Positions 2,340 to 29,596 of a stretch of 30,702 nucleotides of DNA are shown here, piece by piece. The notes beneath the pieces were generated by a model, which made no database searches, was not told the DNA's origin, and saw nothing but the letters and a program-made list of their open reading frames with translations. The stretch is from Herpetosiphonaceae bacterium. Its GTDB lineage: Bacteria; Chloroflexota; Chloroflexia; Chloroflexales; Herpetosiphonaceae. The DNA lies in the NCBI GenBank assembly GCA_013813565.1, contig JACCRK010000382.1, positions 1 through 30,702 on the forward strand, read 5' to 3'. A program made the position numbers and the translations under genes. Position 1 is the first letter of the stretch. Each line of letters begins with the position of its first letter.

Positions 2340-3428
2340 TCACTGTTCGTGGGCGACGATCTGCGCCACGATTGCCCGAAACTGCTGCTCAAAGACCGGT
2401 CGCGCAAACGTCTCGGCGTGCTGGCGAATAGCGGCGGCGGCGTAGCTATCGGCCTGGCTGGCGACGATCGCCTGGGCCAGCGCCTCGACGGTCTGGTGGG
2501 CAAAAAAGCGCCCTGTCCGGCCCTCGACCACGGTATCCAGCGCCCCGCCAGCCGCGTAGGCGATCACCGGACGGCCAGCGCCCATGGCCTCCAGCGGCTG
2601 AATGCCGGCATCTTCTTCGCCGGGCATCAGGTAGGCGCGGCAGCGCGCATATAAATTGTGCAGGGTGGCGGCATCAACTCGTCCGACAAAGCGGATAGTT
2701 GGCCCGGCGATCTGCTCAAGCGCGGCGCGGTCACGGCCATCGCCAAAGACCACCAGCGGCAGCCCAAGCTGGTTGCAGGCCCGAATCGCCAGATCGATGC
2801 GCTTGTACGGCACCAGCCGCCCGCCAGCCAGATAAAAGTCGGCTGGCTCCTGCGGTGCAAACGGCAGGAGTTCAACTGGTGGGGTAAGAATGGTTGCATC
2901 ACGGCGATAAAAGTGCTTGATTCGGGCCGATACTGTGCGTGAGTTGGCCACAAAATGGTCGACACGCTGCGCCGTTTGTACGTCCCACAGTCTAACATAC
3001 GTCAGAAACAGCGGCAAAAGCGCCCCAAACAATCCACCGATCTGCTCACGCTCGACATAATCTGCCGAGCGCCAGGCAAAGCGCATCGGTGTGTGGCAGT
3101 AGCAGATATGCTTGGCGCCCGGCCGGGTGATCACGCCCTTGGCATAGGCGCTGGATGAGCTGATCACTAGGTCGTAGTCGGTCAGGTCGAAGCTCTCGAA
3201 GGCGCTGGGATACAGCAAAAAATATTTGCGGAAGTGCTTGCGCCAGGCGGGCAGCCGCTGCATAAACGATGGCCGAATATCCCAGCGGCGATACATGGCT
3301 GGCAGCGCCGCTGGATCGTAGATCGAGGTATAAATTGGCGCGGTTGGGTACAAGTCGTGCAGCACTTCGAGCACCCGCTCGGCACCGCCATATTGATTCA
3401 GATAATCGTGAACGAGTGCGACGCGCAT
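2340..3428 (-). CDS. Glycosyltransferase family 4 (GT-B fold, RfaB-like)
   Basis: The 362-aa product starts MRVALVHDYLNQYGGAERV, the typical GT4 N-terminus. The C-terminal half has the E-x7-E region (LMPGEEDAGIQPLEAMGAGRPVIAY...GGALDTV). The ORF track extends this ORF to 4763, but that extension is antisense to the amidohydrolase gene and is an artefact. The start at 3428 (ATG) was mapped by counting residues. Confidence 0.8.
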   Translation of the reverse strand: MRVALVHDYLNQYGGAERVLEVLHDLYPTAPIYTSIYDPAALPAMYRRWDIRPSFMQRLPAWRKHFRKYFLLYPSAFESFDLTDYDLVISSSSAYAKGVITRPGAKHICYCHTPMRFAWRSADYVEREQIGGLFGALLPLFLTYVRLWDVQTAQRVDHFVANSRTVSARIKHFYRRDATILTPPVELLPFAPQEPADFYLAGGRLVPYKRIDLAIRACNQLGLPLVVFGDGRDRAALEQIAGPTIRFVGRVDAATLHNLYARCRAYLMPGEEDAGIQPLEAMGAGRPVIAYAAGGALDTVVEGRTGRFFAHQTVEALAQAIVASQADSYAAAAIRQHAETFARPVFEQQFRAIVAQIVAHEQ

Positions 3429-3525
3429 AGATCCTCGTGTGCTTAAATCAAGATAAAGACCAGCGTTGGCCTGAATGCGTGGGCGATTATACCGCAGTTT
3501 GGCGGCGCTAGGCGGTGGGCTGGGT

Positions 3526-3560
3526 AATTTGTCAAAGCCTGATATCGCGTGTAGCATGAT
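3526..3560 (+). promoter_or_regulatory. Putative sigma70-type promoter for the amidohydrolase gene (TTGTCA, 17-nt spacer, TAGCAT)
   Basis: -35 TTGTCA at 3526-3531, a 17-nt spacer, then -10 TAGCAT, in the divergent intergenic region between the GT gene and 3654. A GAAGGAG Shine-Dalgarno lies 7 nt before the ATG at 3654. Confidence 0.3.
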
Positions 3561-3653
3561 TGCAGCGCTGGTATCCACGCCAGCCCACAATCGATATGCA
3601 GTTTCCATCGTTACCCATGTAATCCAGATATTATCGCTACGTGAAGGAGCTAC

Positions 3654-4856
3654 TTGATGACGAGCCGAACCGATTTTCACATGGTCGCCCATTCCCTGGT
3701 TGAGCAATTGATCACGGATCGGCGCGACCTGCACCAGCATCCTGAGCTGGGATTTCAGGAGTTTCGCACCGCCAAGATTATCGCCGAGCGCCTGCGCGAG
3801 CTGGGCTACGACGTCACCGAGGGCGTGGCAGAGACCGGCGTGCTGGGCGTGATTCCGCCCAAACAGGGCGGCAAGCTGGCGATGCTGCGCTTCGATATGG
3901 ATGCGCTGCCGATTGAAGAGCAGAACCACGTCGAGTACCGCTCGCTGGCTGAGGGCAAAATGCATGCCTGTGGCCATGACGGCCACGTGGCGATTGGCCT
4001 GGGCGTGGCGGCGGCGCTGATGGAGAACCGGGCCGCGCTCGGCGATGGTGGGGTCAAGCTGCTGTTCCAGCCGGCCGAGGAGGGCGGCGGTGGCGCCGAG
4101 CGCATGGTGCAGGCCGGCGCGATGGAAAACCCGCGCCCCGATGTCTCGCTGGGCATGCATATCTGGGCCGATCTGCCGCTGGGCGTGGCGAACGTGCGCT
4201 CTGGGCCGATTATGGCCTCGGCCGACGAGTTCACCATCAGGGTGACCGGCAAGGGCGGCCACGGCGCCCAGCCCCACGTCACGGTTGATGCGGTGCTGGT
4301 CGCCGCCCAGATGATCGTGGCGCTGCACACCATCGTCAGCCGCAACATCAACCCCGAGCAGCCCGCCGTGCTGACGGTTGGCGCCGTCCACTCCGGCACC
4401 GCCCACAACATCATCGCCCACGATGCGGTGCTGAAGGGCACAATTCGCTCGTTTGATACCGACGTGCGCGAGACCGTCCGCCGCCGCCTGTACGAGGTCG
4501 TCACCGGGATCGCCAGCGCCTACGATGCCCACGCCGAGGTTGAGTACTCGGTCACCTGTCCGGCGACCGTCTGCGCGGACGACGCCACCGCGGTTGTGCG
4601 CGAGGCCGCCGAGACGATCCTGGGGCCGGCAAATGTGATCGACACCCAGCGCACGATGGGCTCGGAGGATATGGCGGTGCTGCTGAATGACGTGCCCGGC
4701 TGCTACTTCTTCCTCGGCGCCAAAAACGAGCAGCACCAGCTCGGCGTCTACGCCCACCACCACCCACGCTTCGACTTCGACGAGGCCGTGCTGCCGCTAG
4801 GCGTGGCGATTATGTGCGAGGCGACCACCCGCTACCTCAACGCGGCCAAGAACTAG
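3654..4856 (+). CDS. M20-family amidohydrolase (N-acyl-L-amino-acid amidohydrolase / hippurate-hydrolase type, M20D)
   Basis: Metal-binding motifs MHACGHDGHVAIGLG and QPAEEGGGGA, and the dimerisation-domain pattern, are present across 400 aa. The Shine-Dalgarno is strong. Confidence 0.85.
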   Translation: MMTSRTDFHMVAHSLVEQLITDRRDLHQHPELGFQEFRTAKIIAERLRELGYDVTEGVAETGVLGVIPPKQGGKLAMLRFDMDALPIEEQNHVEYRSLAEGKMHACGHDGHVAIGLGVAAALMENRAALGDGGVKLLFQPAEEGGGGAERMVQAGAMENPRPDVSLGMHIWADLPLGVANVRSGPIMASADEFTIRVTGKGGHGAQPHVTVDAVLVAAQMIVALHTIVSRNINPEQPAVLTVGAVHSGTAHNIIAHDAVLKGTIRSFDTDVRETVRRRLYEVVTGIASAYDAHAEVEYSVTCPATVCADDATAVVREAAETILGPANVIDTQRTMGSEDMAVLLNDVPGCYFFLGAKNEQHQLGVYAHHHPRFDFDEAVLPLGVAIMCEATTRYLNAAKN

Positions 4857-6689: not shown

Positions 6690-6850
6690 TCAGAGCGGAA
6701 TAATCCACAACTATGTCAATAGCATGGTGCGCTTAATGTGGATAACATTAAAATACTATCCACAAAACGCTTCATTTATCCCTTTGTAATGCGATTGTTC
6801 TCAGCGGAATAAAAAAGGCATTTTGTGGATAGCGGGTGGACGATTGTGGG
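6690..6850. other. oriC core: cluster of four DnaA boxes in an AT-rich region
   Basis: The four boxes are TAATCCACA (6701-6709, +), TGTGGATAA (6737-6745, reverse complement of TTATCCACA), CTATCCACA (6756-6764, +) and TGTGGATAG (6824-6832, reverse complement of CTATCCACA). All are within one mismatch of the TTATCCACA consensus. They are embedded in the most AT-rich stretch of the window (ATAACATTAAAATACTATCC, GGAATAAAAAAGGCATTTT), which could serve as the DNA unwinding element. Confidence 0.6.
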
Positions 6851-6857
6851 AAGCTAT

Positions 6858-7055
6858 TTATGCAGCGCGGCGGCTTGATGATCCCTGATTGATCGAAACG
6901 CTAATCGGCACAACATCTTTCGAGCCACACTGTGGGCATTTGACTTTGGTTGGGAGCGGTCCAGCCACGGCGGTTTCGTGTTTGCAGTGGTTGCATAGCA
7001 GGGTGGTTGTCATAAAATCAGCTACATCTTCATGGGTGGGAGCTGGAATATACAT
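6858..7055 (-). CDS. Small (about 65 aa) zinc-ribbon protein of unknown function
   Basis: Two CxxC pairs about 20 residues apart (CNHCKHE...KCPQCGS) form a classic zinc-ribbon. A GGAG Shine-Dalgarno lies 8 nt upstream of the internal ATG at 7055. The longer ORF back to 7094 has an AT-rich N-terminal extension without an SD. It is on the same strand as, and immediately downstream of, the NACHT gene. Confidence 0.4.
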   Translation of the reverse strand: MYIPAPTHEDVADFMTTTLLCNHCKHETAVAGPLPTKVKCPQCGSKDVVPISVSINQGSSSRRAA

Positions 7056-7156
7056 TGGGTCATCTCCATTGCTTAAATTGTTTGCTGATATCAACTATAG
7101 GCTTTACCGCCCGCGTTGACGAGATCGAGAGATGACAAATCGAGAACAACACCCTT

Positions 7157-10102
7157 CTAATCCTCCTCGCTGACCTGCTGGGCCTCATAGCGCTCAATCA
7201 GCGCCGCCAGCGTTGCCCAGACCAGCCGCTGGCTATAGGCATCAACCTGAGCAAAGCCGGCAAACTCGGCGATCAGCGCCAGGGCCGGGGTTGGATAGGC
7301 GGCATAGGCTGTGACCGCGGCATCACGCACCCGCGCCGATGGGTCGAAAAGCGCCTGGCGGATGACCTCCCAGTGTTCCCCCGCACCAAAGGCCGTCACC
7401 GCCACGCTCCGCATGTCGGGGTCTTCAGCCCTGAGCGCCGGCCGAATCGCCTCCCAATGTCCACCGCTGCCAAACGCGCTAATGGCGGCCCGGCGCACGA
7501 CAGAATGCGGATCGCTCAGCGCCGGTCGAATCGCCTCCCAGTGTTCGCCCGCGCCAAAGGCGCTGACGGCAGCGCTCCGAACGTCATCATCGTGATCGCT
7601 CAGCGCCGCCCGGATCTTGTCCCACTGTTGATGGGCGCCGAACACCTCCACAGCAGCGCGGCGGACCTCCCAGTCGGGATCGTCCAGCGCCGGTTCGACG
7701 GCGGCCCACTCCGGCCCAGTACCAAACGCCTCGACCGCTGCCTCACGCACCGAGACCGATTCATCGTGGAGCGCAAAGCGAATCATCTCCCACTGCTGGC
7801 CGCGCCCAAAGGCATAGACAGCAGCGCTGCGGACCAGGGCGGTCTCGCCAGTCAGCGCCGAGCGAATGTAGCCCCACTGCTGGCTGGCGCCAAAGGCCTC
7901 CACGGCAGTCCGCCGAACCCGTTTAGAGCGATCGCGCAACACTGGCCGAATCGCCTCCCACTGCTGCCCGGCGCTGAAGGCCGCCACCGCCGCCTGGCGG
8001 GTCCACTCGTCGGGATCGCTCAATAGCGGACGGAGCGTTTCCCACTGCTGCGCCACCCCAAACACCTTGATCGCATCCAGATGGACGCCCCCGGCGCGAT
8101 CATTGAGCGCCGGATAGATCGGCTCCAGCGCCAGCCCAAGACATTCGAGGCCGACCAGACCGCTGATTGCCACCACGACCGGCTCGCGGACATGGCCGGT
8201 CCACCACAGCTCCCCGAGCTCGCGGGCAATGGTGCGGGTTAGCGAAGGCTTTACGCCAACATCATCACCTAAAATCGCCGCCGCCAGCAGCAGATCGCGG
8301 TGCAAAATGTCAGGGTAGAGACTGTTGGCGCCGTGAATCGAGCGCACAAATGCGGTGGCTCCGGCCTCATCAGCGTTCATCACGCCAATCTGGCCAGCGG
8401 TCAGCAAGATAACTTCCTGCCAGCCTGGGTTATGCAGATGTGGACGGATGCGGGCAAAACGCTCTTCGGCGGGCAAAACTGCCACGGCGCGGGCGGCAAA
8501 ATACTCCTGAAAGGTCCGATGAATAAAGCCCCAGGCATCAGCCCCACGCTCAACTAGCAGACCGCTATGTTCACGGACATCGATCAGCCACTGCAACGCC
8601 TCACGCTCGGGATCGCTGGCCTCGCGCTCGGTAAAAATCCGCCGCAGCTCGCGCTGAAGCTCGGCAAATCTGGCGGTGCCATCAGGTCTGGCGCTATGCA
8701 GCCATAAGGCCAGCGGCGCCATAACTTTCACCGTATCCAGCACATCCAGCGCTTTCCCGACGATGTGGCCGCTCAGGCTGCGGGCGCGATTCCAGCTTTC
8801 CAGCAGCGTTCGCGCATACAGATCATACAGCTCGATCCGCCGCCGTGGCAGCGATTTACCCTGGCGATGAATCAGCGCCAGAATCGTCAGGAGCAGCGGA
8901 TTGCCCGCCAGCTTGGCCACGCTGGGGTTGGCGTTGATGGCGGTAAACAGGCGCCGTTGCTCGGCGGCAGCCTCGCGGATGGCGTGGCGGGTATCACCGC
9001 GCTGCATCAGCTCGAAGGCCCGGCACCACTGCCGGGTAAAGCGGTCGATCTCAGCTGGGCCGAAATCCAGCAAGGTATAGTGGGGGAACTCCGCCGCCAT
9101 GGGCGCGGCGCGGTAGCCAACAATCCGGCTGGTCAGCACGACACGATTGCCAAGCTGGGTATAGCGGCTGATAAATGTCTGGACCCGCTCGGCGATACTG
9201 CGGCGAATCTCGCTGGACTGGACCTCATCAAGCCCATCGAGCAGCACCAGCACCCGTCCGCTATCCAGGGCTTCCCCGAACAGCGGAGTGAGGCCAGGCA
9301 GCTCGTGCTGTTCGGCGTAATATTGGCCCAGAAACTCAAACAGTGAGCGTGGCTGTTGGGCCAGGGCGGCGCCATAGGCCGCCAGCGGCACCAGAATTGG
9401 CAGGCGGGACTCGGGCATGTTCAAGCGTTCGGCGGCAGCATCTTCGGCGAATGTCAGGGTCAGATAGCGCAACAATGTTGATTTGCCGGCGCCTGGGTCG
9501 CCCAGCACAACCAGGGTTCGATAGTCACGGAGCGCGGTGGTGATATCAACCCGGCGGGGTGTCAGGTTCCAGCGGCGGCGGTTGAGCAGCGCCAGCTCCT
9601 GCTCCAGGTGCTCGTGTTTCGTCGGCCCAGCCTCATGGAGGCGGACGATCAGGCGGCGCTCTTCGGGCGAGACCGTATCGCCCTCGCCCATCTCGCTGGT
9701 GCTTTGCCCGGCGACATACAGCTCGGCGAGCGGCAGCGCGATCGGCTGATTGGTCTGCAGAATACCCTGAAATGTCAGCGAGCGATGGGCCTCGATCAGC
9801 TGTTGGCGATACAGCTGTTCCAGGGCGGCCAGGTCGGCTGCGGTTGGCTGCTGCTCACGCTCGCCGATCAGGACAAAATAGCGGGCCATGCGCTCAAGGA
9901 TCGGATAAAGCGCCTCGCTATACTCATTCTGCTGATACAGATCGCGTCCGGCCAGGTTCGTAATGTTAATGGTGCCGCCGCTGATCGTGAGAGACACCCC
10001 GGTTGTCCGAGCGGCGGCACTTTCCGACTGAAAGGCTCGCACAAGATCGGCAACTGTGATCGTTGTTTCCGCCAACGGCGCATCAGGTGCTTCATCGGCC
10101 AT
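7157..10102 (-). CDS. NACHT-family STAND NTPase with a C-terminal array of about ten PBS-lyase-type HEAT repeats (bacterial NLR-like protein)
   Basis: NACHT motifs are present: Walker A VVLGDPGAGKSTLLRYL (DNA about 9470-9520), Walker B RVLVLLDGLDEV and TSR (VVLTSRIVGY). A pre-NACHT helical region precedes them (LTFQGI...LAELYVAGQS). The C-terminal 330 aa are 31-aa repeats of the form [Q/E][Q/H]WE.IRPAL.D.D..VR.AAV.AFG. A strong GGGAGGGG Shine-Dalgarno lies 3 nt before the ATG at 10102. Confidence 0.85.
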   Translation of the reverse strand: MADEAPDAPLAETTITVADLVRAFQSESAAARTTGVSLTISGGTINITNLAGRDLYQQNEYSEALYPILERMARYFVLIGEREQQPTAADLAALEQLYRQQLIEAHRSLTFQGILQTNQPIALPLAELYVAGQSTSEMGEGDTVSPEERRLIVRLHEAGPTKHEHLEQELALLNRRRWNLTPRRVDITTALRDYRTLVVLGDPGAGKSTLLRYLTLTFAEDAAAERLNMPESRLPILVPLAAYGAALAQQPRSLFEFLGQYYAEQHELPGLTPLFGEALDSGRVLVLLDGLDEVQSSEIRRSIAERVQTFISRYTQLGNRVVLTSRIVGYRAAPMAAEFPHYTLLDFGPAEIDRFTRQWCRAFELMQRGDTRHAIREAAAEQRRLFTAINANPSVAKLAGNPLLLTILALIHRQGKSLPRRRIELYDLYARTLLESWNRARSLSGHIVGKALDVLDTVKVMAPLALWLHSARPDGTARFAELQRELRRIFTEREASDPEREALQWLIDVREHSGLLVERGADAWGFIHRTFQEYFAARAVAVLPAEERFARIRPHLHNPGWQEVILLTAGQIGVMNADEAGATAFVRSIHGANSLYPDILHRDLLLAAAILGDDVGVKPSLTRTIARELGELWWTGHVREPVVVAISGLVGLECLGLALEPIYPALNDRAGGVHLDAIKVFGVAQQWETLRPLLSDPDEWTRQAAVAAFSAGQQWEAIRPVLRDRSKRVRRTAVEAFGASQQWGYIRSALTGETALVRSAAVYAFGRGQQWEMIRFALHDESVSVREAAVEAFGTGPEWAAVEPALDDPDWEVRRAAVEVFGAHQQWDKIRAALSDHDDDVRSAAVSAFGAGEHWEAIRPALSDPHSVVRRAAISAFGSGGHWEAIRPALRAEDPDMRSVAVTAFGAGEHWEVIRQALFDPSARVRDAAVTAYAAYPTPALALIAEFAGFAQVDAYSQRLVWATLAALIERYEAQQVSEED
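7200..8180. repeat. Imperfect tandem DNA repeat of about 93 bp, roughly ten copies, encoding the HEAT-repeat array
   Basis: A recurring DNA unit such as ...GCTCAGCGCCGG(C/T)CGAATCGCCTCCCA(G/A)TG... appears at a period of about 93 bp (for example 7437-7463, 7521-7547, 7940-7965), matching the 31-aa protein period. Confidence 0.6.
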
Positions 10103-10123
10103 TGTCCCCTCCCTTCTGGAGAA

Positions 10124-10492
10124 CTACTGCTGAGCGATGGGCTGGATCTGATAGCCTGGGAATGTGCTTAGATCCAGTGCGCCCTGGCCGGTCTGCAGAT
10201 CGGGCGGGATACGCTGCAAGCATTCCAGCACAAACCCCCGCAATGCCGCGACATCGATCTGCTGGTGGACTGGCTCGTAGGCGGCCAGCAGATCGTGGGC
10301 GGTCTGCAGTAAAAAACGCGGGCTGGTGATCAGTCCCAGGCGAAGCTGATTGAGGGCCACGCAGACGCGAATCAAGCCCTTATAAAAATCAGCGCGCTCA
10401 ACAAACCACAGCTTCTCCAGCGCCAGCACGCCTTCAACATACTCGCTGCGGTTAAAACAGTGGACAAAATGCTGCCAGCTGGCATCGCTCAT
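10124..10492 (-). CDS. DUF309-like small protein (divergent; the conserved His of the FNxGxYxEAHE motif is replaced), first gene of the NACHT operon
   Basis: The 122-aa product has HCFNRSEYVEGVLALEKLWF...GLIRVCVALNQLRLG, which resembles the DUF309 signature (FN.G.YFEAHE.LE.LW) as I recall it. A GAGGT Shine-Dalgarno lies 5 nt before the ATG. Its stop is 21 nt upstream of the NACHT start, and the NACHT SD lies inside that gap, implying co-transcription. Confidence 0.55.
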   Translation of the reverse strand: MSDASWQHFVHCFNRSEYVEGVLALEKLWFVERADFYKGLIRVCVALNQLRLGLITSPRFLLQTAHDLLAAYEPVHQQIDVAALRGFVLECLQRIPPDLQTGQGALDLSTFPGYQIQPIAQQ

Positions 10493-10528: not shown

Positions 10529-10557
10529 AGTCTAGCCGACGGCGATTGGTGCGTCAA
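10529..10557 (-). promoter_or_regulatory. Putative promoter of the DUF309-NACHT operon (-35 TTGACG, 17-nt spacer, -10 TAGACT on the minus strand)
   Basis: The reverse complement of 10552-10557 is TTGACG and the reverse complement of 10529-10534 is TAGACT, with a 17-nt spacer. The site lies in the divergent intergenic region shared with the ABC transporter promoter. Confidence 0.3.
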
Positions 10558-19143: not shown

Positions 19144-20121
19144 ATGAACGTTGAGAGCTTGCCATTAGTGCTGCCAGGATTGCTCGCCCTGCCCATCATC
19201 TGGACGGTGATGCGGCCGATGGAACGCTTTATCATGATGCGCGCAATGTGGCGAATCTGGCCGGTTGTTCGCCCAATTGTTGGCTGGCTGTGTATTGTTC
19301 TGGGGATTCTCGGCATTATTCTGCCGATTTTGCAGGGGATTATCTTTTTGGTGATTGGCGCAACCCTGATCGGCCGGCACCATCCCCTGATCCGCTGGTT
19401 TCGCGTGCGCTACAAGCAGCTGCTGCGCACCTGGAGGCGCTCGCCAAATCGGCTGCTGGCCTGGATCGGCCGGCGCGGTGAGCAGGCGCTGGCGATTCTT
19501 GAGCGGCAAATGCTGCATCTGCGGCAGCATTTTCAGCTCCGGGCCAAGGCGCGGCGGCGCTTCCGGGTGGTGCTGATTGCCCCCGCTGCTGTTCGGCAGC
19601 AGCTTAATCACTGGCGCTCGCGCTATGATCCCGCCTATCGCAACGATTTACCGCCACACATTGTGCTGGTGGCAACCTCGCGCTCATCCCACCGACCGCA
19701 GTTCGAGCAGGATCTGGCGCGCCTGTGTGGGGCGCTGGAGCCTTTTCAAATTAAGCTCGACCAGGTTGTTCTGGATTCGCATGAGCACCGTATTTTCAGC
19801 ACTGTCGGCAGCGGAGCGCCCGCGATTCGGTCGCTGCGTGAACAAATCGCCAGGATTGCGCCAGCCGAGCTGCGGTTTTCACAACGGCAGCTCTGGCCCT
19901 GTCTGACGCTTGGCAAAATTCGCCATCAGTCCAGCCTCCGCAGCGCCTACGAGTCCATTCAGCGCGGGTTTGAGCCACAAACCTGGTCGGCAACCGAGGT
20001 CGTCCTGCTGGAAGAACGCATTGGATCAATCTGGCACGAGGTGCGCCTTTTTTCGTTTAACCGTCGTTTATTGGCCCGAAGCAACGACGCTTCGCCGCTC
20101 ATTGTCGAGGAGGCACTCTAG
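19144..20121 (+). CDS. Fusion protein: N-terminal DUF454/YbaN-like (PGPGW-related) membrane segment plus C-terminal 2H-phosphoesterase (LigT/2'-5' RNA ligase)-like domain with non-canonical motifs
   Basis: The N-terminus has hydrophobic helices and GWLCIVLGILGIILPILQGIIFLVIGATLIGRHHPLIRWF, which matches the YbaN/DUF454 signature (LGxxGxxLPxLP..F.L.A...R..P). The C-terminal 200 aa have LigT-like topology (FRVVLIAP...PPHIVLVATS...FQIKLDQVVL...WPCLTLGKIRH...EVVLLEERIG..WHEVRLFSF), but the two H-x-T/S-x catalytic motifs read H-I-V-L and C-L-T-L. Confidence 0.55.
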   Translation: MNVESLPLVLPGLLALPIIWTVMRPMERFIMMRAMWRIWPVVRPIVGWLCIVLGILGIILPILQGIIFLVIGATLIGRHHPLIRWFRVRYKQLLRTWRRSPNRLLAWIGRRGEQALAILERQMLHLRQHFQLRAKARRRFRVVLIAPAAVRQQLNHWRSRYDPAYRNDLPPHIVLVATSRSSHRPQFEQDLARLCGALEPFQIKLDQVVLDSHEHRIFSTVGSGAPAIRSLREQIARIAPAELRFSQRQLWPCLTLGKIRHQSSLRSAYESIQRGFEPQTWSATEVVLLEERIGSIWHEVRLFSFNRRLLARSNDASPLIVEEAL

Positions 20122-24731: not shown

Positions 24732-26048
24732 TTGCGTTTGACATCATCTACCGATATGACAGCACGTATTTTAGTCGCTGACGATAATGAGGCGTTAAGC
24801 GAACTCCTGGAGATTATTCTGCTGGAGAATGGCTACGAGGTCGTGCTTGCGGCAAATGGCGACGAGCTGCTGCGTAAGGCCCAGACCACCTCACCCGATC
24901 TCATGCTGGTCGATATTATTATGCCCTATATGGATGGCTATGAGGCGATCCGCCAGCTGCGCAACGATACCCGCCTGGCCCATATTCCAATTATTGTGCT
25001 GACGGCATGTACGTCGCTGCAGGATGTGGTGACCGGCTTTGAGACCGGTGCCGATGACTACATTACCAAGCCTTTCCAGATGCCGGAGCTGCTGGCGCGG
25101 GTCAAGGCCCAGCTTCTTCGCGCTAACCGGCGGCCGGTCCAGAACCCGCTCACCGGTCTGCCAGGCAATACGCTGATCGAGGAAGAGATCAGCCATCGGC
25201 TGCGCATCGGCGAGCCATTCGCACTGTTGTATATCGACCTGGATAACTTCAAGGCCTTCAACGACACCTATGGCTTTGCCCGCGGCGACCAGGTGATTAA
25301 GCTGCTGGCCGGGCTGCTGACCGACCTGAAACAGCAGGAGGCCAACGAGCGGATTTTTATTGGCCATATCGGCGGCGATGATTTTGCGGTGCTGCTGCCG
25401 CTTAACTCGGTTGTGCCATTCTGTGAACAGCTGACCGCCCAGTTTGATGTTCAGGTGCCAGCGCTCTACGACCCGGAGGATATTCAGCGTGGGTATCTGG
25501 CCCGCGAGGATCGCTATCACATCGTGCGCCAGGTGCCGATCCAAAGTGTTTCGATTGGGGTGGTAACCACCAAAAATCGCTCGCTCACCTCATATCACGA
25601 TATCAGCCGGGTGGCGGCCGAGATGAAACATCTGGCTAAAAAACAGCCGGGTAGCGTGTATATTATCGATCGCCGCTCGCAGCAGGTGTTGGTTCCCCAG
25701 GAGCGGCGCAAGCGGCGCCCCACCGTCTATGTTGCTGGCAGTGAGGGCCTGATTAAGCAGCAGATCGTAGCTGCCTTTGAGCAGCAGATGCTGGTGATTA
25801 CCAGCTACGACCCGGCAACCAACCCTGAGCAGCCTGATCTGGTGACCGTGATTGGCGCTTCGATCTCAACAGCGATCAGCGAGATGGAACGAGACTGGCC
25901 CGATGTGCCGATCATCGCCATCGTGCCTGGAGATGCTGATGATCCATCAACAACAGAGTTCGGGATGAAAACATCGATCAAGCCAACGGTTCCGGTTGGG
26001 GATTATCTCTCTTTGGCACTGCACCTGTTGCGGCTGGAGGCTCGATGA
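24732..26048 (+). CDS. Response regulator: REC receiver plus GGDEF diguanylate-cyclase domain (GGDDF variant) plus a C-terminal region of about 110 aa of unknown function
   Basis: The REC domain shows ILVADDNE...LMLVDIIMPYMDG...LTACTS..D...GADDYITKPF. The GGDEF domain shows NPLTGLPGN..., ALLYIDLDNFKAFNDTYGFARGDQVI and IGHIGGDDFAVLLP. Candidate starts are TTG at 24732 or 24738 (the latter with a GAGGGGG Shine-Dalgarno 6 nt upstream) or ATG at 24756. Confidence 0.85.
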   Translation: MRLTSSTDMTARILVADDNEALSELLEIILLENGYEVVLAANGDELLRKAQTTSPDLMLVDIIMPYMDGYEAIRQLRNDTRLAHIPIIVLTACTSLQDVVTGFETGADDYITKPFQMPELLARVKAQLLRANRRPVQNPLTGLPGNTLIEEEISHRLRIGEPFALLYIDLDNFKAFNDTYGFARGDQVIKLLAGLLTDLKQQEANERIFIGHIGGDDFAVLLPLNSVVPFCEQLTAQFDVQVPALYDPEDIQRGYLAREDRYHIVRQVPIQSVSIGVVTTKNRSLTSYHDISRVAAEMKHLAKKQPGSVYIIDRRSQQVLVPQERRKRRPTVYVAGSEGLIKQQIVAAFEQQMLVITSYDPATNPEQPDLVTVIGASISTAISEMERDWPDVPIIAIVPGDADDPSTTEFGMKTSIKPTVPVGDYLSLALHLLRLEAR

Positions 26049-29000
26049 TCGGGTGGGTCATTGCTCTTGTGGTGTTGCTGTGCCTTATTCTGGCACTTAA
26101 TCTGCGCCCAACAGGCCAGATCCGACGGCGAACAATCGAGCTACGCAGCTGGCTCAACCGCTTCAGGCGGAGTCGCCGTCCGACACCACCGCCACATGCT
26201 AGCGCGCCGACTGTGCGCGGGCGCAATTTGCGCTCGCCACGCCGGTCATTCACGGTGCGGATTCGTGATGAGGTGGCCTCACGTGGCGGCAAGGGCGGGC
26301 TCGTTCTGTTCGGGATTTTTTTCTTGGCAGTATTGCTCTTTATGCGGATTAGAGGAATGCCTGGATCAGCTCCCGAGCGCCCAAACCTCCAGGTTGCGGT
26401 GGCCCACTTCACCGCGCCCGATGGCGCGCCCGCGCCCGAGGGCGCCTCGGTGATGCAGGCTCTGGTTGATGAGTGGACCCAGGGCGATACCCACCGCCTG
26501 ACCCGCCCCCTCGGACTGATCCCCCTCAGGCAATCCATCCCCGATTCCCAGACCGCCTTTGAGATCGCCCAGAGCCAGCGCGCCGATGTGGTGATCTGGG
26601 GCAGCATTGAGCCGGGCGGCACCGCCAACACCGCCAGCCTGCGCCCACGGCTGCTGTGGTGGCCACGGCGGGCGTTGCCAACCGACCGCTCGCTCAGCGT
26701 GCGCGAGCGGCTCGCGCAGCCGGTGGTCTATGAGCTGGCGGTGACTCCCCTGAATGGTCAGGTTGTGCTGGGCCAGATTCTGAACACCCTCGACCTGTAT
26801 CAGTCGGCGGAGTACGACGCGGTACTGCAGTCGGTCAATGTGCTGCTGGACCAATATGCGGTCGGTTATGCTGTCGATGGGCAGCTGCGCCCGGATCTGC
26901 TGCTCTCGCTGCGCGGCAGCATCGCCTCGATGCAGGAGCAGTGGTCGGCGGCCGAGCTGGACTATCGGGCGGCAATTGAGGCGACCAGCCCTGGCCGCGC
27001 TGAATACTGGAATAACCTGGCGGTGGCCCTGGCGGCCCAGGGGCGGATCGATGAGGCTGGACAGGCGCTCAACACGGCTCAGGCGCAGAGCGACCAGGGC
27101 GGCGGTAATCTGGCGGCAATTCAGCTGAATCGCGGCCTGATCAGGCTGCGTGGCCCCGACCCGGCGGCGGCGGCGGCGAGTCTGGGCCACGCCCATGAGC
27201 TGTTGCCGAATGGTGTGGTGACCTTGGTGTCGCTGGCTGAGGCGCAACGGCGGGCGAATCAGTTTGATCAAGCGGTGGCGGCGATCAATCGGGCGCTCGA
27301 GCTTGCGCCAAACGATCCGCTGGTGCAGCTTGAGTCCAGCCGGATCGAGCTTGCGCAGCTGGTCGGGGTCGGTGACCAGCCGCTGTGGGAGCTGGAGATC
27401 GCCCCTGAGCTGCCCCATGACAGGCTGACAGCCCTGCGCACGCGGCTGGACAGCGCTGTGGCAACCCTGGAGAGTATGGTTGTCGGCGAGCGGCAGCAGG
27501 CGGCCAGCGATGATGCTTCAGGCCGGCCGGAGTCCGGGCGGGTTCACGAGGGCACCGCCCGTCAGCTCAGCAGCCTGCTGAGCGAGGCGCGCTACTGGCG
27601 CTCGGTGGCGCTGACTGAAGAAGGGGTCGCCGCCGCCCGCAATCGTCCAGGCGGGCTGCGCGGGCTATGGAATAGCATGTTTGGCGATGATACACCGCTG
27701 GTGCAGGCGCAGAAAACCCTGGCACCCTTAGCCAAATCCGAAGAGAACAACTACGATATTCAGCTCCAGAGTGGTCGCGTCTACCGTCTGCTCGGCTCGT
27801 CGAAAGTTGCGCTGGACTACTATACGAGGGCGTCTGAGATCAACCCCAACCGCCCGGAGGCCTGGTATGGGCTGGCGAGCACTCGCTGGGAGCGCGAGGC
27901 CGAAAGCCCTGAGCGCAACGAGGCAATTCGGGCATGGCTAGCCCAATCGATTGCGGCGGACCCGCGGTTTACCCCGGCCTATTTGTTAATGGCGCGGCTT
28001 GAGCTACGCGACAAACAGTGGGCCGCAGCATTGCCCTCCCTGCAATGGCTGAAGCTTAATCGGCCTGACCAGATCCCGGCCCAGATTGCGCTAGGCGAGG
28101 CGCAGCGTGAGCTGGGCCAGCTTGCTGAAGCCGAGCTCACGCTCCTGCCACTGGCAAATGCCAACAATGGGGCGGCGCTGGTGGAGCTGGCGCGGGTGTA
28201 TCTACAGGCGAGCCAGGTTGAGGCCGCCGAAACCGTGCTGCGGCGGGCGCTGGAGCTGGATAGCACCAATGCGATTGCCGCCTATGAGCTTGGCCGCTTG
28301 CTGCAAAACCAGGGCAACTACGCCGGGGCGGAACAGGCCTACACGCTGGCGATCGCCGCCAATGAGGCGTATATGGAGGCGCATCTGGCGCTGGGCCAGC
28401 TCTATGGCCGCTATCTCAACGATCCCCAGCGGGCCGTGACAGCGTATCGTCGGGCGATTGAGGCCGGTGGCACTGATGCCCGCAACTTTGAGGATCTTGG
28501 ACGCGAGTTTTTAGAGATCGGCCAGTATGCTGAGGCTGCCGATGCGCTTGAGCAATCGATCGCGCTCAATCCGAATGTGCCTGAGTCACGCCATGCACTG
28601 GCCCAGGCTTATCGGGAGCTTGGTCGCTACGATGCCGCTCGCGAGCAGGATCGGGCGGCGATTGCCCGCAAGGCCGACGGCCTCTACATCGATGCGCAGA
28701 TTGGCATCGGTGAATCGTTTCGGCGCCAGGGCCGACCGGACGAAGCGATCGAGGCCTACAATGTGGCGCTGGATGCGGCGCCCGACTCGGTGCCTGCCTA
28801 TGTCGGCCTCGGGCGCACCGCAGCGGATAAACAGGATTGGCAGGCGGCAATTGGCTACTATAATCAAGCCCTAGCCCGCGATGCCGATGATGCGAATGCT
28901 CATTTCTGGCTGGGCCAGGCGCTGGTGGAGCAGGGCCACCATGAGCTGGCGCTGGCTGAGTTCCAGCTGGTGCTGGCAAACCCAGCCACCAGCAACACCG

Positions 29001-29596
29001 ATGCCTTCTATGGCGCCGGTCGGGCCTATATGCGGATGGCTGAAGGCTTATACTACGATGATCCAGCGAAGGCAGCCCAGTATGATGCCGAGGCGCGCTC
29101 CATGCTGGATGCGGCGCTCAGCCGACGGCCAACCTTTCCCCAGGCCCTGCTGGAGCGCGGGATTCTCAATGAGCGTCAAGGCCAGGTTCAGGCGGCCCTG
29201 GCCGATTATGGCCAGGCGGCCGAGCTGAATCAGCTTGATGCTACGGCCTTGTTTTTACAGGGCAAGCTATACCTCAGCCTCAACAATGTTGCGTCTGCCA
29301 CCGAAGCCCTGGAGAATTCGGTGCGCCGCGATCCCAATAGTGCCACCTCGCTGTACTGGCTGGGCCGGGCCTATCGGGCCCAAAGTCGCCCTGCTGATGC
29401 GATTAAGAGCTTTAGCCGCGCAGTTTCGATCAACGGCGGCTATACCGAGGCACGCTACTTCCAGGGTCTGACCGAGGAAGAGGAGAATCAGCTCGAGGCC
29501 GCCCGTAGCTCCTACGAGGCGATTGTGGCGCAGTCCACCCCCGATGATCGCTGGCGCCAGCAGGCCGAACAGCGCCTGCGCGAGCTAGGCCAGTAG
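26045..29596 (+). CDS. Large membrane-anchored tetratricopeptide-repeat (TPR) protein
   Basis: An N-terminal TM helix (WVIALVVLLCLILAL) and a second hydrophobic segment (GLVLFGIFFLAVLLF) are followed by more than 20 TPR-like 34-aa repeats (W.NLA.A...G..DEA...L..A...P....A...LG). The start overlaps the upstream stop (ATGA) with a GGAGG Shine-Dalgarno. Confidence 0.85.
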   Translation: MIGWVIALVVLLCLILALNLRPTGQIRRRTIELRSWLNRFRRSRRPTPPPHASAPTVRGRNLRSPRRSFTVRIRDEVASRGGKGGLVLFGIFFLAVLLFMRIRGMPGSAPERPNLQVAVAHFTAPDGAPAPEGASVMQALVDEWTQGDTHRLTRPLGLIPLRQSIPDSQTAFEIAQSQRADVVIWGSIEPGGTANTASLRPRLLWWPRRALPTDRSLSVRERLAQPVVYELAVTPLNGQVVLGQILNTLDLYQSAEYDAVLQSVNVLLDQYAVGYAVDGQLRPDLLLSLRGSIASMQEQWSAAELDYRAAIEATSPGRAEYWNNLAVALAAQGRIDEAGQALNTAQAQSDQGGGNLAAIQLNRGLIRLRGPDPAAAAASLGHAHELLPNGVVTLVSLAEAQRRANQFDQAVAAINRALELAPNDPLVQLESSRIELAQLVGVGDQPLWELEIAPELPHDRLTALRTRLDSAVATLESMVVGERQQAASDDASGRPESGRVHEGTARQLSSLLSEARYWRSVALTEEGVAAARNRPGGLRGLWNSMFGDDTPLVQAQKTLAPLAKSEENNYDIQLQSGRVYRLLGSSKVALDYYTRASEINPNRPEAWYGLASTRWEREAESPERNEAIRAWLAQSIAADPRFTPAYLLMARLELRDKQWAAALPSLQWLKLNRPDQIPAQIALGEAQRELGQLAEAELTLLPLANANNGAALVELARVYLQASQVEAAETVLRRALELDSTNAIAAYELGRLLQNQGNYAGAEQAYTLAIAANEAYMEAHLALGQLYGRYLNDPQRAVTAYRRAIEAGGTDARNFEDLGREFLEIGQYAEAADALEQSIALNPNVPESRHALAQAYRELGRYDAAREQDRAAIARKADGLYIDAQIGIGESFRRQGRPDEAIEAYNVALDAAPDSVPAYVGLGRTAADKQDWQAAIGYYNQALARDADDANAHFWLGQALVEQGHHELALAEFQLVLANPATSNTDAFYGAGRAYMRMAEGLYYDDPAKAAQYDAEARSMLDAALSRRPTFPQALLERGILNERQGQVQAALADYGQAAELNQLDATALFLQGKLYLSLNNVASATEALENSVRRDPNSATSLYWLGRAYRAQSRPADAIKSFSRAVSINGGYTEARYFQGLTEEEENQLEAARSSYEAIVAQSTPDDRWRQQAEQRLRELGQ

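What the first reader, a model, noticed from the sequence alone, without database searches (positions are those of the whole stretch)
7157..10102. NACHT protein pairs a minimal N-terminus with a 10-copy PBS-lyase-type HEAT sensor array
The protein begins with about 60 residues that include a G/T/I/N-rich stretch (TISGGTINITNLAGRD) before the helical pre-NACHT region. This is too short for a typical enzymatic effector such as a nuclease, protease, TIR or SIR2 domain. The C-terminus is a highly regular array of PBS-lyase HEAT repeats, each carrying an invariant Trp (QQWE.IRPAL.D.D..VR.AAV.AFG), rather than the TPR or WD40 sensors most often seen in characterised antiviral STAND proteins. Together these features suggest either an unusual sensor specificity or a scaffolding STAND protein whose output goes through partner proteins.
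Basis: partly seen in the sequence, partly recalled or inferred. Interest (0 to 1): 0.55.

Follow-up and report, generated by a model that had tools for sequence, protein, structure and literature searches.

The report
Effector-less bacterial NLR with HEAT sensor
This gene encodes a bacterial relative of animal NOD-like immune receptors (a NACHT ATPase with a HEAT-repeat sensor) that lacks any recognisable killing domain; it is an ordinary member of a large, already catalogued family, with two lineage-specific quirks.

Summary
The ORF at 7157-10102 (-) encodes a 981-aa protein, NCBI MBA3471338.1, from a Herpetosiphonaceae MAG. It has an intact NACHT NTPase and ten in-register 28-aa HEAT units; Trp is present in nine of the ten, not all. 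The first ~85 residues match no Pfam family and no solved fold.

NACHT proteins with HEAT or FGE-sulfatase 'antigen-receptor-type' C-termini are an already catalogued class (Kibby 2022; Kaur 2021). Of the 120 nearest relatives, 45 carry HEAT and 70 carry FGE-sulfatase, and about a quarter also have N-termini under 100 aa. The G/T/I/N stretch is modelled as a beta-hairpin. It contains a 'GG...AGRD' motif that recurs at the same position in 23 of 116 relatives, behind unrelated N-terminal modules, so it looks like a connector rather than an effector.

No partner was found. Neither flanking protein shares the motif, and no other protein in 185,579 representative genomes carries the N-terminal module. 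The local context is housekeeping (dnaA, Opp), although three ~43%-identical relatives sit in defence islands.

Two features are lineage-specific: the orphan N-terminal alpha-beta-beta-alpha module and the compact 28-aa Trp-bearing HEAT unit. Verdict: a new member of a known kind, of low to moderate interest.

The parts
7157..10102 (-). Complete CDS of the 981-aa NACHT-HEAT protein (NCBI MBA3471338.1)
10106..10113 (-). Shine-Dalgarno-like GGGAGGGG, ending 3 nt upstream of the ATG
9848..10102 (-). Orphan N-terminal module, residues 1-85: disordered tip 1-14, helix 17-33, beta-hairpin 36-41/44-49, helix 60-83. No Pfam or fold match; found only in the orthologue
9941..9988 (-). G/T/I/N-rich stretch TISGGTINITNLAGRD (residues 39-54). 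It forms the predicted hairpin and contains an AGRD motif that recurs at this relative position in 23 of 116 relatives
9521..9847 (-). Conserved pre-NACHT region, residues 86-194 (L..YR..L......L.F.G...P..LPL..hYV, then helices). It is aligned in all 65 relatives used
9020..9520 (-). NACHT NTPase core, Pfam PF05729, residues 195-361
9476..9502 (-). Walker A GDPGAGKST, residues 201-209 (G201, P203, G204, G206, K207 and T209 are invariant in the family alignment)
9224..9253 (-). Walker B strand VLVLLDGLDE, residues 284-293, with the NACHT-type D[GAS]hDE signature (D289-G290-L291-D292-E293 invariant)
8135..9019 (-). Helical and winged-helix part of the NOD module plus irregular helical repeats, residues 362-656. 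Includes the invariant F526-x-H528-x-T530-F531-x-E533 segment
7295..8134 (-). Ten in-register 28-aa HEAT units, residues 657-936. Trp is at unit position 3 in 9 of 10 units; variable unit columns are 5, 11, 14-16, 19 and 23
7157..7294 (-). C-terminal helical cap, residues 937-981, plus the stop codon. It is conserved in P0121 and P0266 and modelled with low confidence
10124..10492 (-). Co-oriented DUF309 gene (MBA3471339.1) ending 21 bp upstream, probably co-transcribed. The pairing is conserved in the orthologous locus. Its relevance to the NACHT protein is unknown
10529..10557 (-). Promoter-like site (TTGACG-17-TAGACT) upstream of the DUF309 gene; a consensus match only

Best explanation
The gene encodes a standalone bacterial NLR-type STAND NTPase. 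It belongs to the NACHT clade whose members carry HEAT or FGE-sulfatase 'antigen-receptor-type' C-termini and are typical of filamentous or multicellular bacteria; here the host is a Herpetosiphonaceae MAG (Chloroflexota). The most likely mechanism has four steps. (1) The HEAT solenoid binds a protein ligand on a surface built from the variable repeat positions; this is inferred. (2) Binding releases autoinhibition of an intact NACHT module, which exchanges nucleotide and oligomerises; this is inferred from conserved Walker A, Walker B and winged-helix His motifs and from NLRC4/NOD2/NLRP3-like fold matches. (3) Oligomerisation clusters the ~85-aa N-terminal alpha-beta-beta-alpha module. (4) Output arises by induced proximity of that module, most likely by recruiting an unidentified partner encoded elsewhere, because the protein has no enzymatic domain of its own; this last step is speculative. 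The G/T/I/N stretch is a beta-hairpin connector carrying a clade-recurrent GRD-type motif. It is not an effector.
For: NACHT passes the Pfam cut-off. Walker A, the D-G-L-D-E Walker B signature, TSR and the F-x-H-x-TF-x-E segment are invariant or nearly invariant across 66 family members. The AF2 model has pLDDT 86 and pTM 0.79, and its best PDB matches are NLRC4, NOD2 and NLRP3, plus PP2A-A and alphaRep. Relatives carry TIR_2, Schlafen/AlbA_2, DUF4062, EAD7 and NNH2 N-termini on the same NACHT core, which is the modular pattern of conflict NLRs described by Kaur 2021 and Kibby 2022. The three full-length relatives at 42-44% identity lie beside McrB-like EVE-AAA_5, HNH, restriction-modification, T5orf172 and DUF3800 genes. 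The repeat scaffold is near-invariant, with variation confined to columns 5, 11, 14-16, 19 and 23; non-synonymous changes against the orthologue are modestly enriched there (odds ratio 2.8, p=0.04). The GRD motif is 54-fold enriched just upstream of the pre-NACHT region and occurs behind TM, Zn-ribbon, coiled-coil, EAD7 and kinase N-termini.
Against: The local context is housekeeping (ParA-like, glycosyltransferase, dnaA, Opp ABC transporter, GDH, ScpA), with no defence genes in 30 kb. The same synteny is kept in the orthologue. PADLOC gives no defence-family match apart from generic HEAT and P-loop hits. No partner or second copy of the N-terminal module was found. No member of this subclade has been tested experimentally as far as I could find. 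The ligand and the output are unknown. The N-terminal fold is modelled at only moderate confidence (pLDDT ~55-76).
Confidence: 0.55

Rival explanations
1. It is a sensor-only or decayed NLR. The protein has lost, or never had, an output module. It acts as a regulator, decoy or helper of other NLR paralogues in the genome, or it is on the way to pseudogenisation.
For: No effector or adaptor is detectable. Relatives with even shorter N-termini exist as standalone genes in housekeeping context, for example P0053 in the complete Archangium violaceum genome. Kibby et al. note multiple diversified NACHT paralogues per genome in multicellular bacteria.
Against: The N-terminal 60 codons show purifying selection, with 22 synonymous and 11 non-synonymous differences. 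The catalytic motifs are intact. The ORF is uninterrupted. No paralogues could be examined, because only 30 kb of the genome is available.
Confidence: 0.15
2. It uses amyloid signalling. The ~25-aa G/N/T/I-rich hairpin would be a BASS-like amyloid signalling motif that templates the same motif on a cell-death effector, as in fungal NLR/HET-S pairs, bacterial Bell/NLR pairs and Bab/Agp.
For: The position (N-terminus of an NLR), the length (~25 aa), the predicted beta propensity and the enrichment in G, N, I and Q all fit the description of BASS motifs in Dyrka et al.. The host is a filamentous bacterium, where such motifs are found.
Against: The defining feature, a matching motif at the C-terminus of an adjacent effector, is absent. 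No second copy occurs in any frame of the window. Neither flanking protein aligns above shuffled controls. No other locus in the species-representative genome F20_78, or in any GTDB representative, encodes a close copy. The motif sits between two predicted helices rather than in a disordered tail. Similar GRD stretches occur in relatives that already have EAD7 or kinase N-termini.
Confidence: 0.07
3. The co-transcribed DUF309 protein (122 aa, stop codon 21 bp upstream) is the functional partner, as effector or adaptor, in a two-gene system.
For: The two genes have the same orientation, a 21-bp gap and a promoter-like site only upstream of DUF309. The pairing is conserved in the orthologous locus. 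Relatives P0003 and P0004 also have a tightly linked upstream gene, an HNH_4-like gene ~10 bp away.
Against: The pairing is seen only in two genomes whose NACHT proteins are 89% identical, so shared synteny explains it. P0003, P0004, P0005, P0014 and P0053 have no DUF309 neighbour. DUF309 has no PADLOC hit and no sequence similarity to the NACHT N-terminus.
Confidence: 0.08
4. It is a non-immune housekeeping STAND scaffold, an NTP-dependent regulator of a cellular process, that merely shares the NLR architecture.
For: It is a core-genome-like locus next to dnaA and its DnaA-box cluster, with stable synteny in the orthologue and no mobile-element or defence genes in 30 kb.
Against: The closest full-length relatives outside the species are in defence or mobile contexts. 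The clade swaps TIR, Schlafen and EAD N-termini, which is a hallmark of conflict systems. The protein has no DNA-binding or enzymatic domain that would suggest a regulatory output.
Confidence: 0.1

Closest known systems
Bacterial NACHT (bNACHT) proteins with 'antigen-receptor-type' repeat sensors (Kibby et al. 2022/2023, bioRxiv 10.1101/2022.07.19.500537)
   Same: A NACHT module with the D[GAS]hDE Walker B signature, followed by a C-terminal superstructure-forming repeat; HEAT is explicitly listed. The N-terminus is the usual site of effectors or adaptors. The family is enriched in multicellular bacteria.
   Different: There is no recognisable N-terminal effector or adaptor. This particular subclade has not been tested experimentally as far as I could find. 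I could not place it in one of the paper's 25 numbered clades.
STAND NTPase-FGS (FGE-sulfatase/C-type-lectin) conflict systems of multicellular bacteria (Kaur et al. 2021, PMC8195603; Dore et al. 2024, PMC10907252)
   Same: The NACHT core is the same: 70 of the 120 nearest relatives are NACHT-FGS at 40-45% identity over the NOD module. N-termini are equally variable (EAD7, TIR, kinase, TM, or uncharacterised extensions). A GRD-type stretch sits ahead of the pre-NACHT helices.
   Different: The sensor is a HEAT solenoid rather than a lectin-fold FGS domain. No DGR (diversity-generating retroelement) component was identified among the window's ORFs of 150 aa or more scanned with Pfam.
Animal NLRs NLRC4, NOD2 and NLRP3
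   Same: These are the best structural matches of the AF2 model over the NBD-HD1-WHD-HD2 module (Foldseek E about 1e-10 to 1e-9). The overall plan is tripartite.
   Different: Sequence identity is only 11-15%. The sensor is HEAT instead of LRR. There is no CARD or PYD death-fold at the N-terminus.
alphaRep / PBS-lyase HEAT-like repeats
   Same: The repeat consensus D..VR.AA..ALG is shared. These are the only PDB sequence matches (E down to 3e-21).
   Different: The unit is 28 aa rather than the usual 31 aa; 81 of the 147 best database matches have period 31. It also carries a conserved Trp at position 3, and only P0002 and P0121 share that variant.
NLR-associated bacterial amyloid signalling motifs (BASS; Dyrka et al. 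2020, bioRxiv 10.1101/2020.01.06.895854)
   Same: A short G/N/I/Q-rich, beta-prone stretch near the N-terminus of an NLR in a filamentous bacterium.
   Different: No matching motif exists on an adjacent or any detectable effector, and the stretch is embedded between helices.

Membership tests
NACHT clade of STAND NTPases | Pfam NACHT (PF05729) above the gathering threshold | tested here: met
   42.2 bits against a cut-off of 26.7, residues 195-361
NACHT clade of STAND NTPases | Walker A GxxxxGK[ST] and the NACHT-specific Walker B D[GAS]hDE signature (as defined in Kibby et al.) | tested here: met
   GDPGAGKST at 201-209 and D289-G290-L291-D292-E293, invariant in the 66-sequence alignment
NACHT clade of STAND NTPases | NBD followed by helical and winged-helix domains, at the fold level | tested here: met
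   AF2 model with pLDDT 86; top Foldseek PDB hits are NLRC4, NOD2 and NLRP3 at E about 1e-10 to 1e-9
Tripartite NLR-like defence STAND (effector - NOD - sensor) | Recognisable N-terminal (or C-terminal) effector or adaptor domain | tested here: not met
Tripartite NLR-like defence STAND (effector - NOD - sensor) | C-terminal repeat sensor | tested here: met
   Ten 28-aa HEAT units
Tripartite NLR-like defence STAND (effector - NOD - sensor) | Defence-island genomic context | tested here: not met
   The window is housekeeping. The feature is met only for relatives P0003, P0004 and P0005.
Known anti-phage STAND families in PADLOC / NCBIfam (Avs, EruA, DS8 and others) | A full-length match to a family model | tested here: not met
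   Only P-loop-local or repeat-local matches were found: EruA 38 bits against a cut-off of 1000, over 32 residues, and PADLOC HEAT-ARM_XIII over the repeats only
Numbered bNACHT clades of Kibby et al. | Phylogenetic placement of the NACHT module among the 25 clades | not testable with these tools
   Reference sequences and the tree are not available here
HEAT repeat / PBS-lyase HEAT-like | Pfam HEAT or HEAT_2 above threshold | tested here: met
   HEAT 82.3 bits and HEAT_2 76.4 bits
HEAT repeat / PBS-lyase HEAT-like | Specific match to the PBS-lyase HEAT-like subtype | tested here: inconclusive
   PF03130 is not among the hits at E<=0.01. Against that, alphaRep proteins match at E=3e-21 and NblB matches partially at 34.9 bits. 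The period is 28 aa rather than 31.
BASS amyloid signalling pairs | The same ~25-aa motif at the NLR N-terminus and at the C-terminus of an adjacent effector | tested here: not met
   No second copy in any frame of the window; flanking proteins do not align above shuffles
BASS amyloid signalling pairs | Match to the BASS1-11 profile HMMs, or fibril formation | not testable with these tools
Effector-associated domains (EAD) / death-like adaptors | Match to the EAD or bDLD Pfam models | tested here: not met
   No hit at E<=10. As a positive control, relative P0106 matches EAD7 at 5.6e-21.
Effector-associated domains (EAD) / death-like adaptors | 'EAD principle': the same module also fused to effectors elsewhere in the genome | tested here: not met
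   The scan of 185,579 representative genomes returned only the orthologous NACHT gene.

The most novel reading that the evidence does not exclude
The orphan ~85-aa alpha-beta-beta-alpha N-terminus could be a new kind of induced-proximity output or docking module for 'effector-less' bacterial NLRs. More broadly, the same could apply to the Gly-rich GRD-type hairpin that recurs ahead of the NACHT module across the HEAT/FGS clade. Once clustered by NACHT oligomerisation, it would either capture a partner by beta-strand augmentation, in the manner of NRPS alpha-beta-beta-alpha-alpha docking domains, or self-template in an amyloid-like manner.
Probability: 0.1. Interest if true: 0.6.

Novelty: new member of a known kind. 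Interest (0 to 1): 0.25.

Why it matters
If the best explanation is right, this adds little that is new. It is one more uncharacterised NLR-like sensor from a filamentous Chloroflexota bacterium, in a family already mapped by comparative genomics. Its value is mainly as a clean example of an 'effector-less' NACHT-HEAT protein, which raises the open question of how such proteins signal. Two small observations might interest specialists. First, a short GRD-type Gly-rich stretch recurs at a fixed position ahead of the NACHT module, behind many unrelated N-terminal domains. Second, the compact 28-aa Trp-bearing HEAT unit is a rare variant that could interest repeat-protein engineers. Neither makes a long-standing question directly testable.

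Tried and rejected

(2) An amyloid or BASS partner. A regex scan of all six frames and local alignment to both flanking proteins with shuffled controls were negative.

(3) The same N-terminal module on other proteins. A word-indexed protein search returned nothing. It also failed to return the query's own parent protein, so that negative is unreliable. The genome scan found only the orthologue.

(4) Homology of the N-terminal leader to the 'GRD leader' of the FGS cousins. The hhalign score was 10.2, against 8.5 +/- 1.7 for shuffles, so this is not supported. Only the short motif and its position are shared.

(5) A defence-island context in the window: rejected.

(6) Known anti-phage family membership: rejected.

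(7) A recent DNA-level repeat expansion. Only 2.2 copies reach 78% identity at the DNA level, and mean nucleotide identity between units is 0.56, so the array is old.

(8) An N-terminal TM helix. My first crude filter flagged residues 33-52, but the Kyte-Doolittle maximum is 0.74, so this is not a TM segment.

Full report
OBSERVATION. The window holds an uninterrupted ORF at 7157..10102 on the minus strand, 981 aa, starting at the most upstream ATG. A GGGAGGGG Shine-Dalgarno sequence ends 3 nt upstream of that ATG. Against the 89%-identical orthologue (P0002, locus L001), codons 1-60 differ at 22 synonymous and 11 non-synonymous sites. The N-terminus is therefore translated and under constraint. 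The protein is already public as NCBI MBA3471338.1, 'MAG: HEAT repeat domain-containing protein [Herpetosiphonaceae bacterium]', and its contig length of 30,702 equals the window. Herpetosiphonaceae belong to Chloroflexota. That they are filamentous is my own knowledge.

DOMAINS. Pfam gives NACHT at residues 195-361 (42.2 bits, cut-off 26.7) and HEAT and HEAT_2 (82 and 76 bits) over roughly 680-940. In a 66-member family alignment, several motifs are invariant or nearly so:
- Walker A (G201, P203, G204, G206, K207, T209).
- The NACHT-type Walker B signature D289-G290-L291-D292-E293.
- T324-S325-R326.
- The winged-helix segment F526-x-H528-x-T530-F531-x-E533.
The D[GAS]hDE signature is the one Kibby et al. 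use to define NACHT. An AlphaFold2 model built with that alignment is confident (mean pLDDT 86, pTM 0.79). Its best matches among solved structures are NLRC4, NOD2 and NLRP3 for the NOD module, and PP2A-A and alphaRep for the solenoid. No solved NACHT protein is close in sequence; the only PDB sequence hits are alphaRep proteins (E down to 3e-21).

HEAT ARRAY. Ten units of exactly 28 aa lie in register over residues 657-936, with consensus qqWE.IRpAL.D....VR.AAV.AFGag. Identity at lag 28 is 0.47, against 0.08 +/- 0.016 in shuffles. Trp is present in nine of the ten units, with Leu in the first. The array is old at the DNA level: mean nucleotide identity between units is 0.56, and Tandem Repeats Finder sees only 2.2 copies at 78%. 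Variation is confined to unit columns 5, 11, 14-16, 19 and 23, that is, the inter-helix loop and an i/i+4 pair on helix B. Differences from the orthologue are modestly enriched for non-synonymous changes there (odds ratio 2.8, p = 0.04). This fits a binding surface displayed on a rigid scaffold, but the evidence is weak. A full HMMER scan of 1.84 billion representative proteins found 3966 matches at E<=1e-3 and 19 at E<=1e-30, so HEAT arrays of this general type are very common. The specific variant is rare, however. Of the 147 best representatives, 81 have the usual 31-aa period, and only P0002 and P0121 share three or more Trp-bearing units at period 28. P0121 appears to be an N-terminally truncated NACHT-HEAT fragment.

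N-TERMINUS. Residues 1-194 hit no Pfam family even at E<=10. Family alignment shows that residues 86-194 form a pre-NACHT region present in all 65 relatives aligned, whereas residues 1-85 are variable. AF2 models residues 1-85 as follows, both in the full-length model and in a separate 1-200 model at moderate confidence (pLDDT about 55-76):
- a disordered tip, residues 1-14;
- a helix, residues 17-33;
- a helix, residues 60-83.

THE FAMILY. The protein has 1831 homologues at E<=1e-5 among a capped candidate set. Counting the precomputed Pfam lists, 45 of the best 120 carry HEAT, 70 carry FGE-sulfatase (PF03781), and 5 carry neither. This is the NACHT/STAND-FGS and NACHT-repeat class already described by Kaur et al. 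2021 and Kibby et al. 2022. Those authors call FGS and HEAT/LRR/TPR 'antigen receptor-type' C-termini and describe enzymatic effectors or adaptors (EADs, death-like domains) at the N-terminus. I confirmed the modularity directly: relatives carry NNH2, EAD7, DUF4062, Schlafen/AlbA_2 and TIR_2 N-termini, and others carry TM hairpins, Zn-ribbons, coiled coils or kinases. Short N-termini are common. Among 114 relatives with a complete start, 31 have fewer than 100 aa and no TM helix ahead of the pre-NACHT region. Dore et al. [quoted passage not shown] A minimal N-terminus joined to a HEAT sensor is therefore not an unusual architecture.

THE G/T/I/N STRETCH IN CONTEXT. Many relatives have a Gly-rich stretch ending in [AVILMF]G[RH]D-hydrophobic just upstream of the pre-NACHT helices. 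Examples are P0116 GGGDFAGRDLNLIV, P0107 with three tandem copies, and P0101 GGVAAGQVAVGRDVYGDV. This regex is 54-fold denser in that 80-aa window than elsewhere in the same proteins: 24 in 8569 aa against 6 in 115,276 aa. It occurs in 23 of 116 proteins. The p-value is inflated by relatedness. Even so, the motif sits behind unrelated N-terminal modules, including an EAD7 adaptor (P0106) and a kinase (P0073), which argues that it is a connector and not the output domain. The window protein has ...GGTINITNLAGRDL... at the corresponding place. Profile-profile comparison of its leader with the FGS-group leader is not significant (hhalign score 10.2, against 8.5 +/- 1.7 for shuffles). Only the short motif and its position are shared, and common descent of the whole leader is not shown.

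PARTNER TESTS. The motif occurs once in the window, in any frame. The co-oriented upstream gene is DUF309 (122 aa, MBA3471339.1); its stop codon lies 21 bp upstream of the NACHT start, and the only promoter-like site lies upstream of DUF309. Neither DUF309 nor the unannotated 78-aa Zn-ribbon-like ORF downstream aligns with the N-terminus above shuffled controls. A scan of 185,579 species-representative genomes with residues 1-91 recovered only the orthologous NACHT gene, in Herpetosiphonaceae isolate F20_78. There is thus no evidence for the 'EAD principle' or for a BASS-type motif pair. Two caveats apply. The word-indexed protein search with the N-terminus failed even to return the parent protein, so it is uninformative.

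GENOMIC CONTEXT. The window is housekeeping: a ParA-like gene, a GT4 glycosyltransferase, dnaA, a five-gene Opp-type ABC transporter, glutamate dehydrogenase, ScpA, an SPFH protein, a PfkB kinase, a response-regulator-GGDEF gene and a large TPR protein. The orthologue keeps the Opp-DUF309-NACHT synteny. By contrast, the three full-length relatives at 42-44% identity lie in defence or mobile settings:
- P0003 and P0004 have an HNH_4-like gene ~10 bp upstream and an EVE-AAA_5 McrB-like gene downstream. P0004 also has a DUF2357/PDDEXK_7 McrC-like gene and a relaxase.
- P0005 lies near a T5orf172 gene, an XhoI/Eco57I restriction-modification pair and DUF3800.
P0053 (Archangium violaceum, complete genome) is a standalone NACHT-HEAT protein with a 21-aa N-terminal extension in non-defence context. 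PADLOC and NCBIfam give no family-level anti-phage match.

MECHANISM. Shown: an intact NACHT NTPase with an NLR-like fold; a regular HEAT solenoid with localised variability; a constrained but orphan N-terminal module; and membership of a modular clade that exchanges conflict-type effectors. Inferred, by analogy with characterised NLRs, Avs and bNACHT proteins: ligand binding to the solenoid, nucleotide-dependent oligomerisation, and clustering of the N-termini. Speculative: the nature of the output. I consider recruitment of an unlinked partner most likely, followed by a sensor-only or regulatory role. The amyloid-type and DUF309-partner readings are less likely because their defining tests were negative or rest on synteny alone.

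VERDICT. The protein is a new, uncharacterised member of a known and catalogued kind (bacterial NACHT with a repeat-type sensor). It has two lineage-specific features: the orphan alpha-beta-beta-alpha N-terminus and the 28-aa Trp-bearing HEAT unit. Interest is low to moderate.

Noticed in passing
window 6701-6832: Four DnaA-box matches (TTATCCACA, one perfect and three with one mismatch) cluster within 132 bp. They lie in the 656-bp, lower-GC intergenic region between the NACHT stop codon and the dnaA start; only three other matches occur in the remaining ~30.5 kb. A promoter-like site for dnaA lies at 6618-6590 (-). This is probably the dnaA autoregulatory region or part of oriC.
   Followed up: partly
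window 6858-7094 (-): A 78-aa ORF with CxxC...CxxC Zn-ribbon-like motifs and weak Pfam Zn-ribbon hits lies 62 bp downstream of the NACHT gene on the same strand. This exact sequence is not in the 15-billion-protein collection. It may be an unannotated small protein or a spurious ORF in the origin-proximal region.
   Followed up: partly
window 10124-10492 (-): A DUF309 gene ends 21 bp upstream of the NACHT start and is probably co-transcribed with it. The pairing is conserved in the orthologous contig L001 but is absent from more distant relatives.
   Followed up: partly
relatives P0068-P0120 (N-terminal regions); window residues 42-55: A short Gly-rich '[AVILMF]G[RH]D' stretch, sometimes in tandem, recurs at a fixed position ahead of the pre-NACHT helices in 23 of 116 relatives. 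It sits behind unrelated N-terminal modules: TM hairpin, Zn-ribbon, coiled coil, EAD7 and kinase. I found no name for it in the papers read.
   Followed up: partly
L003 2055-3236 and the P0004 contig 2872-4059: A ~395-aa HNH_4-like gene lies ~10 bp upstream of the NACHT-HEAT gene in two independent contigs, with an EVE-AAA_5 McrB-like gene downstream. This may be a conserved two-gene HNH + NACHT-HEAT system.
   Followed up: partly
L004 6245-9688: P0014 looks 'effector-less' (35-aa N-terminal extension). However, a 247-aa gene with no Pfam hit ends 12 bp upstream, and the related P0043 carries an NNH2 N-terminus fused in one protein. P0014 is therefore probably a split or frameshifted gene call.
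   Followed up: no
L001 8001-10706: The orthologue P0002 ends with a divergent tail (...RPRACAKSGSQPKTG) 74 bp before the contig end and lacks the last two HEAT units and the C-terminal cap. This is likely a frameshift or an assembly artefact near the contig edge.
   Followed up: no
window 24732-29596 (+): A response-regulator-GGDEF gene (24732-26048) overlaps by 4 nt the start of a 1183-aa all-TPR protein (26045-29596), which suggests a translationally coupled pair.
   Followed up: no
window 19144-20121 (+): A 325-aa protein combines a DUF454 match (below its Pfam cut-off) with a 2'-5' RNA ligase superfamily domain, an unusual fusion.
   Followed up: no
tool behaviour: The word-indexed protein search with the 95-aa N-terminus returned no hit at E<=10. 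It missed even the parent protein P0001, which contains the query exactly. Negative results from that tool for short, low-complexity queries should not be trusted.
   Followed up: no
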